Shown: piece after piece, positions 5,751 through 55,731 of the stretch | How positions within the stretch are numbered: the stretch's first letter is position 1 | How the letters are laid out: every line of letters starts with the position of its first letter | Source of the DNA: Octopus vulgaris | Taxonomy: Eukaryota | Length of the DNA: 64,000 bases | Reading direction: 5' to 3' | Assembly (NCBI GenBank): GCA_951406725.2 | Contig: OX597816.1 | Location: 119,226,001 to 119,290,000 of the forward strand | The notes under the pieces: generated by a model | The model's input: the letters and a program-made list of their open reading frames with translations, nothing else | The model's database searches: none | Told to the model about the DNA's origin: nothing | Program-made: the position numbers and the translations under genes

Positions 5751-5960
5751 ACAATTATTCGGTAGCCATGATAAAACTCCGAGCTTCAGTTGGCCGGATA
5801 ACTGAAGAGATGGCGGCGTGGATTTCCACCCGGCAGCCGAAACTCGGAGTTTTATCACAGCTACCGAATAATTGTTACCTATTACATTTACAGATAAATT
5901 TCTCTATTTACATAATATCGAGGTCTCTTTCATTCTTTTGTTGTCTTACCATTTTTATCA
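5751..5960 (+). mobile_element. PLE-like terminal-repeat cassette with inverted 5' arm and type-I hammerhead motif, in Mnx intron 2
   Basis: 5751-5783 is the inverted complement of 5843-5876. The HHR core lies on the + strand. The cassette is flanked by TA-rich microsatellite. Confidence 0.7.
5797..5856 (+). ncRNA. Type-I hammerhead ribozyme motif
   Basis: Stem I gataa/ttatc; CTGAAGA 5802-5808; stem II ggc..tgga-tt-tcca..gcc (extra nt after the core); GAAA 5839-5842; stem III ACTC-g-GAGT; cleavage triplet GUU 5849-5851. Confidence 0.7.
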
Positions 5961-7101
5961 ATATATATATATATATACAAACACGAAAGGCTTCTTACAG
6001 TTTCCGTAAACAAAATTCATTTACAAAGACTTGGTCAGCCCGGAGCTATAGTATTTGACACTTATCCAAGAAATCATGCAGTGGGACTGAACCCAAAACC
6101 ATGTGTTTGGCAAGTAAACACTGTGTCTTATGCACAGAGCTACACCTGCAGCTGTCTCTCTCTATCACTGTCTCTTTCGTTCTCTTTCTCCATCTGGCTG
6201 TCTCTCTCTCCCTCTCGCTCTCTCTCCTTCTCCCTCCCCCCTCTCTCTCTCTCTGTATATATACATATGTGTGTGTGTGTGTGTGTGTGTGTGTGTGAGT
6301 GTGTATGAGAGAGAGAGAGAGAGAGAGTGTGTGTATGTACTTCTCAAAAAGTAGATTATCTTGCATATTACTTATTGAATAAACAAATACTGTCAGGTAA
6401 TTACCAGCAATCTGTTTTCAGAGATCAAAGAACAGCATTCTCCGTGTTCTAAGGTAAGCAACTTTCACGCACATACACTCATGTTATATATTCCGCCATC
6501 GCACGTTGTTACCCTCTATATCACACCACACTTACATATGGAAATACAAGGATACATAAACGTAATTGTTTGTCTTGTAATTATTCTATAATAAGAAACA
6601 TTTGAAGAAAGACAAACATGTGAAAGAGCGAAGACGGCGGCTTATATAAAAAAAAAACACTGCCGTATACTGTCGGGTACCACGTGTCAGAGGGTGGTAG
6701 TACATAAAGCTGACGTCAGGTCAATTTCCTTTCACCTTTAAGTGTCCATACGAGGTTTTATATAACAATACCGTCTGTTTACTTTGCATGCACTTGACGG
6801 TGGCAACTAAGACATGCATGGCTCATGAATGCATGTATCGTTCTCTACTTCCCTTTCCTTCTTTCTTTCTTTCTTTCTTTCTTTCTTTCTTTCTTGTCTT
6901 TCTTTATCTCTCTCTGTCTCTCTGCATATATATATATATATATATATATATATATACATACATATATATGGAGAGGGTGCATATCATCTTTACATATATA
7001 CATACTAACATACACACAATTTATATATGCACACATATGAATACACATTCACATGTACATATATTTGTGAATATACACGAACATGTGTATGTGTGTGTAT
7101 A

Positions 7102-7486
7102 TGGCTGTGTGGTAAGAAGCTTGTTTCCCAACTACATGGTTCCGGGTTTAGTCCCACTGCGTGGCAAGTGTCTTCCACTACAGCCTCCGGCCAACCAAAG
7201 CCTTGTGAGTGGATTTGGTAGACGGAAACCGAAAGAAGCCCGTCGTATATATATGCATATGTGTGTATTTGTGTGTCTATGTTTATCCCCTCATCATCGC
7301 TCGACAACCGATGTGGGTGTGTTTAAGTCCCCGTAACTTAGCGGTTCGGCAAAGGAAACCGATAAAATAAGCACTAGGATTACAATGAATCTATCAAGAG
7401 GTCGATTTGTTCGACTAAAGGCGGCGCTCCAGCATGGCCGCAGTCAAATGACTGAAACAAGTAAAAGAATAAAAGAATAAAAGAAT
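7102..7486 (+). mobile_element. tRNA-derived SINE, family B (full length, internal microsatellite)
   Basis: A box tggctgtgtgg, B-box-like ggtttagtccc, ggcaagtgtctt core, 3' gactgaaacaagtaaaagaa tail. More copies or fragments at about 5985, 20465, 27810, 34610, 37235, 40985, 45717, 50005, 51100, 52725, 54130, 60470, 62570 and 63735. Confidence 0.85.
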
Positions 7487-8049
7487 AATACACACACACA
7501 CGTCTACATGTACATTTATACATGATTACATCTCTCTCTCTCTCTCTCTCTCTCTCTCTCTCTGTATATATATATATATATATATATATATATATATATA
7601 TATATATATATATATGTAGGTAGATATATGTATATGTACATATGTTTCTTGGTGTATATGTGTGTGTGTATATCTATATATGTAAGTTTGTATGTATTAT
7701 CTACAAGTATATCTGTATACGCTTACATTCGCATAATATACTGAGTTTATGAACTTCAATTAGCTATAGCTTAAAAAACTTTCATCTGTTTCCATGGCGT
7801 TCTTTAGACGTTACAGCCCACATCTTGTATATTAACTCCTCGACTTTTCTGCTAGTCAGGAACTACGTTCTGTTGAAAATCTGTGCTACTATTGATGTTG
7901 TTATTGTTTAGATTTATCAAGCAAACCGACCGAAAGAACTCCAACCGTGACGATCGCAACTTTTTAGACGGAGTACGAGTAACTTAATCTATGTCCTTTC
8001 TATTCTTTTGCATCTTCGTAGTATGTGGAAAACTATGGAGATTAGCTGC

Positions 8050-52636: not shown

Positions 52637-52990
52637 TATATATATATATATATATATATATATATATATATATATATATATATATATATATATATATATA
52701 TATATATATATATATAGTCTTTTATACTTTTAGTTGTTTCAGTCATTTGACTGCAGTCATGCTGGAGTACTGCCTCAAAGGGTTTTTTTAGTCGAAGAAG
52801 TCAACCCCTTTGTAAGCCTAGTACCTATTCTATCGGTCTTTTGCTGAACGGCTAAGTTACAAGGACGTAAACAGACCAAGTGATGGTGGGGAGACAAACA
52901 CAAACACACAAACATATACATATGTATATATATATATATATATATATATATATATATATATATATATATATATATGTATGTATGTATATA

Positions 52991-53960
52991 TTAGGGAGTA
53001 AATCCAAACTTACAGGAAAAATTAGATTCAGGATTAAATCAAATTTCACAGTATAAATATAAATTAAATTAGAAATAAAACCACTATTAGGCAAATCAAA
53101 CAGTAAAAAACATAAACCAAAACATAAATATAAATATAATTAATATAATATACAAAAAATATAAAATATAAAATTTAAAATTAAATTATTTAAATTTAAA
53201 ATTTTTAATTTATATTTATAAATTTTTATATATTTTTTAATTTTAAATTTTTTAATTTTTAAACTTTTAATTTTTTAATATTTATATTTATTTATTTATA
53301 TATATATTTTTTTTTATTATATTATATTATATTAATTATATTAAACTTTTTATTACCTTTTGATAGTTATATATATATATATAATCAAACTGAAAAACAT
53401 AAACCAAAACATAAATATAAATATAATTAATATAATATACAAAAAATATAAAATATAAAATTTAAAATTAAATTATTTAAATTTAAAATTTTTAATTTAT
53501 ATTTATGAATTTTTATATATTTTTTAAATTTTAAATTTATAAATTTTTATACTTTTAATTTTTTAATATTTATATTTATTTATTTATTTATATATATATA
53601 TTTTTATTATATTATATTATATTACTTATATTAAACTTTTTAGTACCTTTTGATAGTTATATATATATATAAAATAAATAAATATATATATAAATAAATA
53701 AATATACAAATAAATAAATAAATATAAATATAAAAAAATTAAAAGTTTAAAAATATATAAATTTTAAATTTTAAAAAATATATAAGAAAATATATAAAAA
53801 TTCATAAATATAAATAAAAATTTTGAATTTAAATAATTTAATTTTAAATTTTATATTTTATATTTTTTGTATATTATATTAATTATATTTATTTTTATGT
53901 TTTGGTTTATGTTTTTCACTGTCTGATTTGCCTAATAGTGGTTTTATCTGTAATTCAATT
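52991..53960. repeat. Extremely AT-rich tandem-plus-inverted duplication attached to a PLE-like end
   Basis: ~289-bp unit repeated directly (53094-53382, 53383-53670), then inverted (about 53671-53947). Both ends lie in (TA)n. Confidence 0.8.
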
Positions 53961-55298
53961 TATATATATATATATATATATATATATATATATATATATA
54001 TATATATATAGATGTATATATGTGTGTGTGTGTATATGTATGTATGTATGTATGTATGTATGTATGTATGTATGTATGTATGTATGTATGTATGCATGCA
54101 TGTATATTGGAGTATGTATATCTTTATGTTTGTGCATGTCGCCCACTACTGCTTCACAACCGGTCTTTGCTTGTTTATATTCCTGCAACATTAGCGGTTT
54201 AGCCAAATATGTCCAAGAGAATATGTAGTACCAGGTTTCAAAAAAAATTTTTTATTAAAGAAAGTTTTGGGGGTCAAGCAAACTGTTCGACAATACCCTT
54301 CAAAGTGCTACCCCAGTATGGCCATAGCCCAATGACTGATACAAGTAAAAAATTTTTAAAAAAATTAGATAAATAAATAAATAAGAAAAGAAAGAAAAGG
54401 TCAGAAGGGTCAGGGTTTCTATGTAGCTATTCGTCTTGTATGTCACTAACTACCAGCCCAATCTACCTAGAATTACAGAGAGGATACGCTGTGCAAAAGG
54501 GAGGGAAAATGGTCACGGGTAGAACAATTTGGATCAATATGGCTTCTTAGTTTAGGTTTCACATGAGGCTAAATGACCAAAATATAAAACGTAACAAGAA
54601 AACTAAACCAATTCTATACCAGTTCCATTTCTAAGAACTTTGGATAGAGTAGTAGTAGTAGTAGTAGTAGTAGTAGTAGTAGCTTAGTAGTAGTAGTAGT
54701 GGTGGTAGTGGTGGTGGTCGTCGACGTCATGGTTTTGTTAACCGTTATCGTCTTCATCGGTATCATTGTCAACGCCAGGACACCCTGCTAAATGTTTATT
54801 TGGTAACTAACGTGTGTGTATGTTTGTGTGTGTGTTTATGTTGTGTCTGTGTCCGTGTGTGTGTGTTTGTGTGTTTGTGTGTTTGTGTGTGTTGTGTGTG
54901 TGTGTGTGTGTGTGTGTGTGTTTGTCTGTGTGCTTGCATGCTTGTGCCCGTTGTGTGTCTGTCTGTGTGTGTAAAGTGATGTGAGTGATTGTGAGCATGT
55001 GCGTGTGTTACGTATTTGTGTGATTTTTGCGAGCTCCAAAGGTAGAATACATATGTGAGGTGAATAACCTGCCGGTGTTGATTCTGTCGTTAGTGTTTTG
55101 TGAACGTTATGTGTCTATCAGGTTGTCTGTACTTTTTCAAGATTTTAAAAATTATTTTATCAGAATTCAAGGTGTTCACTAACCAAGAAACGAGGCTCTT
55201 TCTATCAATTAAAACTGGTTTCTATCAATTAAGCTGATTTGTTATATATATACAAATTGAGGAAATGGACCAGGTAAAATCCATACCTGGATTTTACC

Positions 55299-55731
55299 TA
55301 CATTATTTACATTTGACGGATATTTGTCCTCATCTTGTTTGTTGTTAACACAACGTTTCGGCTGATCTGCCCTCCAGCCTTTATCATGTGTCTTGGGAAA
55401 ATTTCGAACCTGGGTTCTCATCCCTAAGGTATTTTTCGATATTATTATTATTATTATTATTATTATTATTATTATGATAATAATAATAATGATGATAATA
55501 ATAATAATAATAATAATAATAATAATAATAATAATAATAATAATAATAATAATAATAATAATAATAATAATAATAATGATGATAATAATATCGAAAAATA
55601 CCTTAGGAATGAGAACCAAGGTTCAAACTTTCCCCAAGACACCTGATGAAGGCTGGAGGGTATATCAGCCGAAACGTTGTGTTAACAACAAACAAGATGA
55701 GGACAAATAACCATCAAATGTAAATAATGTA
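55299..55731. repeat. Head-to-head palindrome of a PLE-like HHR cassette with an (ATT)n/(AAT)n centre
   Basis: ~143-bp arms with about 11 mismatches. The microsatellite flips strand at about 55475. Confidence 0.92.
55638..55683 (+). ncRNA. Minimal type-I hammerhead ribozyme (dimer type)
   Basis: gacac-CTGATGA-a-ggctg-(gagggtatat)-cagcc-GAAA-CG-TT-gtgtt. All three stems are consistent; palindromic ACGT stem III; GUU triplet. Confidence 0.78.

What the first reader, a model, noticed from the sequence alone, without database searches (positions are those of the whole stretch)
5751..55731. Four unrelated PLE-like cassette families all form head-to-head palindromes with 3' ends pointing outward
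Seen: inverted duplications at 5751-5876, 31066-31947, 52991-53960 and 55299-55731 from four different sequence families. In the three with a visible hammerhead, the ribozyme-sense strand reads away from the centre, and the outer ends mostly lie in or near TA-rich simple repeats. The 53-kb polarity is inferred from the matching end at 1-185. Established: Penelope-like elements carry minimal type-I hammerheads in their terminal repeats and often insert with an inverted 5' segment. Inference: this genome hosts many ORF-less, ribozyme-bearing mini-elements (retrozyme-like) whose integration routinely yields fold-back palindromes, for example by cDNA snap-back at microsatellite targets. This would seed long dsRNA hairpins in and around a developmental gene.
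Basis: partly seen in the sequence, partly recalled or inferred. Interest (0 to 1): 0.75.

Follow-up and report, generated by a model that had tools for sequence, protein, structure and literature searches.

The report
Back-to-back Penelope retrotransposon stubs
The four mirror-image repeats in this octopus homeobox gene's introns are real but ordinary: each is the cut-short end of a protein-coding Penelope-type jumping gene pasted back to back, and the way one arm carries a short extra tail suggests the enzyme likely starts copying from both ends of the DNA break.

Summary
All four palindromes are real and point 3' ends outward; the inferred 53-kb polarity is right. They are not ORF-less mini-elements. 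Each family is the 3' end (pLTR) of an RT + GIY-YIG Penelope-like element found elsewhere in G000: three with Hydra-clade motifs, one Penelope/Poseidon-type. Head-to-head insertion with a one-sided tail, and TA-repeat targeting, are published PLE features. The window is not unusual (about 1.8 such palindromes per 64 kb elsewhere). What the genome adds: 97 of 100 head-to-head pairs carry exactly one tail, and the longer arm is tailed or tail-less about equally (31 vs 27). That fits priming from both cut ends at two RNA start sites better than simple cDNA snap-back; local fold-back occurs at some junctions. The 55-kb family avoids TA repeats, makes target duplications and has a tRNA-like head. 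All four lie in MNX1 introns; dsRNA and ribozyme cleavage are untested. The scan noted the same pattern, two-end priming and the tRNA-like head before, on other DNA of this genome.

The parts
5751..5797 (-). Family A left arm, tail-less, 5'-truncated inverted copy ending in a TA/GT repeat
5790..5960 (+). Family A right arm: hammerhead core at 5802-5853, tail 5897-5960, then (TA)n; 3' end of a Hydra-type PLE; in MNX1 intron 2
31066..31503 (-). Family B left arm, tail-less, starts at (TA)n; hammerhead core at 31205
31511..32100 (+). Family B right arm: hammerhead at 31808, 153-nt tail 31948-32100, then (TA)n; pLTR of a 3.7-kb Hydra-type PLE (parent L121)
52991..53340 (-). Family C' left arm with 67-nt tail (52991-53057) at (TA)n; truncated downstream of the family's hammerhead
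53680..53970 (+). Family C' right arm, tail-less, ends at (TA)n near 53964; inner boundary approximate (AT-rich; tandem duplication 53093-53675)
55299..55445 (-). Family D left arm, tail-less, hammerhead core mutated
55446..55584 (.). (TTA)n/(TAA)n centre: the element's own internal repeat, where both arms are truncated
55585..55755 (+). Family D right arm: minimal hammerhead 55638-55684, tail 55732-55755; pLTR of a Penelope/Poseidon-type PLE
1..185 (+). Family C 3' end with tail, single arm; its hammerhead lies just before window base 1; no inverted arm in the 10 kb upstream
4869..5285 (-). MNX1 last coding exon (host gene)
9023..9186 (-). MNX1 homeobox exon; the conserved first exon lies about 183 kb away at G000:C3:119418123-119418809

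Best explanation
Each palindrome is one truncated insertion of a protein-coding Penelope-like retrotransposon, and it likely forms because the element's enzyme cuts both target strands and primes reverse transcription from both ends, one at each of two fixed start sites on the RNA. Shown: family identity, head-to-head polarity, two sharp 3' end points per family, one tail per pair, target duplications around D pairs. Inferred: the two antisense cDNAs grow inward, stop at random or at the RNA 5' end, and are joined by microhomology, short inserts or a short fold-back; a lone arm results when the second cDNA is lost. Priming on the 5' pLTR of a normal transcript would give ORF-free stubs without any separate mini-element. 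I put the PLE identity at about 0.95 and the two-end mechanism at about 0.65.
For: Parents: B, direct pLTRs 3.7 kb apart around RT and endonuclease frames (L121); C, an 839-aa ORF (L130) and pLTRs 6.8 kb apart (L132); C', ORF links in 2 of 10 extended loci (L359, L362); A follows the endonuclease end in 14 of 19 loci anchored on it; D head follows the ORF in 24 of 24, a piece of the hammerhead arm in 23 of 24. One tail in 97 of 100 adjacent head-to-head pairs, 46 of 49 in the two families whose queries lacked the tail, where lone arms are tailed about half the time (A 13 of 27, D 24 of 44). Longer arm: tailed 31, tail-less 27, equal 28 of 86. L193 has a tail-only inverted arm. B junctions: 1-5 nt overlap in 10, blunt 1, 1-17 nt insert in 13 of 24. 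Duplications of 9 nt or more around 9 of 31 D pairs against 1.0 in shuffles. In 4 of 18 B pairs the arms differ at sites where both alleles are common in the family. In vitro a Poseidon protein cuts and extends both strands, starts at two sites that bracket the tail, and is predicted to be a dimer (PMC11167929).
Against: In 9 of 24 B junctions both arms start within 63 nt of each other, some far inside the ORF, so fold-back copying does happen. Arms of one insertion are closer to each other than to other copies (1.4% vs 3.0% in B; 0.7% vs 0.9% in C) and the window's B pair shares two variants seen in none of 46 and 52 other arms: one RNA template explains this, but so do snap-back and later arm-to-arm conversion. 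Three A pairs break the one-tail rule. The window's D copy has no target duplication. Pfam gives only a sub-threshold RT hit (E 0.0026) for one of five PLE peptides, so clade calls rest on motifs, not a tree. Loci are the best 20-30 matches of about 40 scored candidates per search, most with 1.5-kb flanks, and the A query held 16 nt of the inverted arm.
Confidence: 0.65

Rival explanations
1. Self-priming: one cDNA (or an antisense template) folds back or jumps onto itself, makes a hairpin, and the endonuclease later trims the tail from one end during resolution.
For: Proposed in print (PMC3846280 Discussion; tail from EN-mediated resolution, PMC8557442). Pivot-type junctions in 9 of 24 B insertions and 28 of 86 equal-armed pairs; shared private variants; a native 12-nt palindrome at the D head where several pairs pivot.
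Against: Needs removal of the tail from the longer, presumably first-made and target-attached arm in 27 of 58 cases; tail-only inverted arm; arms discordant at family-polymorphic sites in 4 of 18; the tail matches two RT start sites in vitro.
Confidence: 0.27
2. The stubs are separate non-autonomous, retrozyme-like families spreading from their own short RNAs. Possible in part for family D, through its tRNA-like head.
For: 0 of 29 hammerhead-anchored D arms reach upstream into the ORF side; 9 keep the A box and several start at the head. Non-autonomous PLE derivatives are known (PMC8557442; bioRxiv 10.64898/2026.07.22.740005, part 1).
Against: The same sequences are the termini of ORF-bearing copies in all four families; B and C arms run for variable lengths into the ORF or UTR; tandem arrays of short units were not seen in these loci (direct neighbours in 6 of 220).
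Confidence: 0.06
3. Assembly or read-chimera artefacts, or DNA-transposon (MITE) terminal repeats.
For: No long reads were available; short-read contigs do not span any palindrome.
Against: Arms differ by 1-15%; tail boundaries recur at the same base across chromosomes; target duplications; termini join RT ORFs, not transposases; a single-copy contig of run X2 runs without a difference from 54945 to 55322, 24 nt into the D left arm (short of the tool's 31-nt bridging rule at the arm boundary).
Confidence: 0.02

Closest known systems
EN+ Penelope-like element insertions with inverted pLTR and one-sided tail (Adineta Pen2a/Pen2, PMC3846280, passages and Discussion read; Fig. 2 legend and text of PMC8557442, passages read)
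   Same: 5' truncation, inverted copy at the 5' end, head-to-head as the usual arrangement, tail at only one end and at either end, palindromes at the junction, target duplications.
   Different: Tails here are 25-153 nt, against 30-40 nt in those texts; those papers explain the inversion by self-priming and the tail by endonuclease resolution.
Hydra clade of C-terminal EN+ PLEs (PMC8557442 section 11, read whole)
   Same: Families A, B, C, C': DKT (B, C), RWK-like motif (B, C), CxCX5C linker (A, C), CxxC and CxH around the end of the endonuclease (B, C), no CCHH, hammerhead, (TA)n targets.
   Different: B (3.7 kb) and C (6.8 kb, long non-coding 3' part) exceed the usual <3 kb; B lacks the cysteine linker; A has CxY in place of CxH.
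Poseidon of Anolis carolinensis (PMC11167929, main text read, supplements not)
   Same: Family D: DKG-like motif, CCHH-type endonuclease without linker, minimal hammerhead, tail, AT-rich targets.
   Different: D's pLTR begins with a tRNA-like A-box/B-box segment and a (TAA)n run.
Opposite-strand pairs of minimal hammerheads 100-700 bp apart in Schistosoma mansoni (PMC4209133, parts 1-2 of 4 read)
   Same: Same footprint, ascribed there to truncated PLEs.
   Different: Not analysed there for tails or junctions.
L1 twin priming (recalled, no call)
   Same: Both target ends prime cDNA; arms joined by microhomology.
   Different: In L1 the second primer anneals internally and the two parts do not overlap; here both arms copy the same 3' end, which gives a palindrome.
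TRIMp3 elements Helenus, Ajax, Cassandra (PMC10886601, passages read)
   Same: A small-RNA-derived Pol III promoter inside a terminal repeat, as in family D.
   Different: Those are non-autonomous LTR elements; D is the repeat of an ORF-bearing PLE.

Membership tests
EN+ Penelope-like elements | Single ORF with RT and C-terminal GIY-YIG endonuclease joined to the repeat | tested here: met
   intact 839-aa ORF in C, broken frames in the A, B, D copies seen; weak profile support only
EN+ Penelope-like elements | pLTRs in direct and inverted orientation | tested here: met
   Direct: L121, L132, remnant in L345; inverted: 98 of 220 loci
EN+ Penelope-like elements | Optional one-sided 3' tail | tested here: met
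   97 of 100 pairs
EN+ Penelope-like elements | Minimal type-I hammerhead in the pLTR | tested here: met
   Descriptor met in B, C, D; core with bulged stem II in A; core upstream in C'; no Rfam match; cleavage untested
Hydra clade (A, B, C, C') | DKT and RWK motifs, CxCX5C linker, CxxC/CxH, no CCHH, (TA)n targets | tested here: met
   By reading translations; C meets all, B lacks the linker, A's N-terminus was not recovered; microsatellite after 87 of 94 tail-less ends
Hydra clade (A, B, C, C') | Placement in the clade on an RT tree | not tested
   No reference sequences in hand
Penelope/Poseidon clade (D) | DKG motif, CCHH endonuclease, no zinc-finger linker | tested here: met
   Translations of L345, L347, L005; no tree
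Non-LTR retrozymes | Non-coding units in head-to-tail tandem arrays, each with a hammerhead | tested here: not met
   Head-to-head pairs or single arms; termini of coding elements
Non-LTR retrozymes | Circular RNA intermediate | not testable with these tools
   Only contigs were offered for this organism
tRNA-derived Pol III unit (D head) | A box and B box at tRNA spacing | tested here: met
   Conserved across 10 aligned copies, boxes about 45 nt apart; box consensus recalled
tRNA-derived Pol III unit (D head) | Detectable tRNA fold; no internal T4 terminator beyond chance | tested here: inconclusive
   ARAGORN 0 of 15 loci; Rfam none; no T4 in 8 of 10 copies but shuffles lack it 56-72% of the time
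DNA-transposon TIR / MITE | Symmetric terminal repeats tied to a transposase | tested here: not met
   Asymmetric ends, variable centres, RT parents

The most novel reading that the evidence does not exclude
The one-tail rule is mechanistic: a PLE dimer engages one RNA at two different start sites, one per cut strand, so every two-armed insertion gets exactly one tail, in both the Hydra and Poseidon clades. This would explain the inverted structure that the papers read here call unexplained. In family D a captured tRNA-type promoter may also supply short Pol III transcripts whose self-complementary 5' end joins the two cDNAs.
Probability: 0.5. Interest if true: 0.55.

Novelty: new member of a known kind. 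Interest (0 to 1): 0.3.

Why it matters
As a description it is known PLE anatomy in new families. The counts matter a little more: how PLEs make inverted ends is listed as open in PMC8557442, and 97 of 100 one-tail pairs with no link between tail and arm length give a prediction that the existing in vitro Poseidon system can test directly. At about one long palindrome per 35 kb, and with introns as long as MNX1's 183 kb, these insertions could be a large source of intronic dsRNA in an animal group known for heavy A-to-I editing (recalled; not tested here). They are also a trap for annotation as MITEs or retrozymes.

Tried and rejected
Rfam: nothing at gathering score; E-value scan swamped by microsatellite miRNA matches (150 of 285 rows shown); no hammerhead model matched locally. 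Monomer folding of the four hammerheads and the D head gave no significant z-score. ARAGORN and Rfam do not see the D head as tRNA; the T4 test was uninformative. Read-laying gave only short-read contigs: no span, no empty-site allele. Pfam barely sees these proteins. I first took A, B and C for Neptune elements from memory and changed to Hydra. My notebook says family E had 0 head-to-head copies; one search shows 1 of 25 (L336). Dropped from counts: L071 and L008 (near-identical duplicates of L070 and L003), narrow loci replaced by wider fetches, arms whose 3' end was broken by more than 30 nt; from the random-window count, inverted pairs of separate SINE-like copies (judged by eye) and spacers over 300 nt. 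L187's short partner is probably an unrelated relative, and internal repeats inflate C arm lengths. Literature searches for an explicit two-end model for PLEs and for a tRNA promoter in a pLTR found none; subscription journals, Repbase and supplements were not seen.
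Full report
Setting. The window is G000:C3:119226001-119290000 of a 2.8-Gb genome. It holds two exons of a homeobox gene on the minus strand; the closest database protein is named MNX1 of Octopus vulgaris by its source. 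A longer relative places the conserved first exon about 183 kb further on. So palindrome A lies in intron 2, and B, C' and D in intron 1.

Observation. All four inverted duplications exist, with arm identities of 85, 98.9, 86 and 92.5%. Hammerhead cores in A, B and D read outward. The 53-kb copy lacks one, but its family carries the core upstream, facing the TA end, and the sister family at 1-185 has a complete minimal hammerhead just before the window.

What the families are. B is the terminal repeat of a 3.7-kb element with RT and endonuclease frames. C is that of a 6.8-kb element with an intact 839-aa ORF; C' links to a related ORF in 2 of 10 extended loci. A follows an endonuclease end about 1 kb upstream in 14 of 19 loci, 17 of which resemble the B or C proteins. 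D follows a different RT-endonuclease ORF in 24 of 24 loci. By motifs listed in PMC8557442 section 11, A, B, C and C' fit the Hydra clade and D the Penelope/Poseidon clade; no tree was built and profile support is weak. The stubs are therefore truncation products of coding elements.

Genome-wide pattern. Of 220 loci, 98 hold a head-to-head pair; four convergent adjacencies look like neighbouring insertions. Of 100 pairs, 97 have one tailed and one tail-less arm; lone arms of A and D are tailed about half the time. Tail-less ends run into a microsatellite in 87 of 94 cases for A, B, C and C', but 3 of 51 for D. D pairs are bounded by duplications of 9 nt or more in 9 of 31 cases against 1.0 in shuffles, so a pair is one event. 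In twelve 50-kb pieces chosen by coordinate, these families occur at 10 places, 5 of them clearly head-to-head and none tail-to-tail; the same scan finds about 17 non-SINE palindromes in 600 kb (1.8 per 64 kb) and 2 in the window, where it misses A and C'. The window is ordinary. A fifth hammerhead-like family in the window (E) is head-to-head in only 1 of 25 loci, so the habit depends on the family.

Mechanism. Simple snap-back needs the tailed arm to be the template and so the longer arm. It is longer in 31 pairs, shorter in 27, equal in 28, and one inverted arm is tail alone. B junctions show short overlaps, blunt joins or short inserts. A purified Poseidon protein cuts and extends both strands and starts at two sites bracketing the tail (PMC11167929). 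I infer two cDNAs primed from the two target ends at the two start sites and joined at their inner ends. Against a pure version: 9 of 24 B junctions pivot within 63 nt, and several show a 35-120 nt fold-back before the second arm, so snap-back acts at some junctions. Arms within an insertion are closer than arms between insertions, and the window's B pair shares two private variants; yet 4 of 18 B pairs differ at family-polymorphic sites. One RNA read twice, with occasional second templates or later conversion, fits both; the published self-priming model with endonuclease trimming (PMC3846280) is not excluded.

Family D. Its repeat begins with a 12-nt palindrome, then A-box and B-box motifs at tRNA spacing, (TAA)n, the hammerhead and the tail. 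None of 29 hammerhead-anchored arms extends into the ORF side; 12 stop at the (TAA)n run, as in the window. Pol III transcription is plausible but unsupported by ARAGORN, Rfam or the T4 test.

Artefact check. Long reads were not available. Diverged arms, recurring end points, target duplications and one partial contig from run X2 argue against artefact.

Prior knowledge. Head-to-head arrangement, one-sided tail, junction palindromes and microsatellite bias are in PMC3846280 (passages, Discussion) and PMC8557442 (passages, section 11); opposite-strand hammerhead pairs in PMC4209133 (parts 1-2 of 4). Passages of an octopus repeat annotation (PMC13282606) count PLE families and have no hit for 'palindrom'. 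Searches for an explicit two-end model or a tRNA promoter in a pLTR found none; supplements were not read and may bear on this. Earlier notes of this scan say much the same; my reading was recorded, before seeing them, and they are not independent support.

Verdict. Real, common, and a known kind of footprint; interest 0.3, carried by the testable one-tail statistics.

Noticed in passing
window 32239-32420 (-) and 33499-33640 (-): Two single-arm copies of a fifth, very abundant hammerhead-like repeat (family E) ending in (TA)n; head-to-head in 1 of 25 loci, convergent in 2. Parent not sought.
   Followed up: partly
window 55265-55298: Small hairpin at the left end of D that looks like an inverted, templated copy of the flank; may explain the missing target duplication. 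Also present in a contig of run X2.
   Followed up: partly
G000:C3:119418123-119418809 and window 9023-9186: MNX1 intron 1 is about 183 kb; database protein P0001 starts at window 9349, lacks the conserved first exon and has a different C-terminus from its relatives, probably a gene-model error.
   Followed up: partly
L161-L184, L290-L319 (family D parent): tRNA-like A-box/B-box head plus (TAA)n inside the pLTR of a coding Poseidon-type element, perhaps a captured SINE.
   Followed up: partly
G000:C3:119354324-119354670: Another head-to-head D insertion in the same MNX1 intron.
   Followed up: no
L097:141-624 and 1132-1614 (oriented): Family C pair whose 484-nt arms include about 330 nt of non-family sequence and enclose SINE-like DNA: possible capture of foreign RNA.
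   Followed up: no
L193 (G000:C3:62710800-62716800): Family B insertion whose inverted arm is only the last ~42 nt of the tail.
   Followed up: yes
window 11517-11857, 51640-51980, 32421-32783, 49305-49718: Frames that look like Tc1/mariner transposase remnants (recalled motifs).
   Followed up: no
window 23297-24176: Degenerate tandem array (period about 204-236) of a common SINE-like repeat.
   Followed up: no
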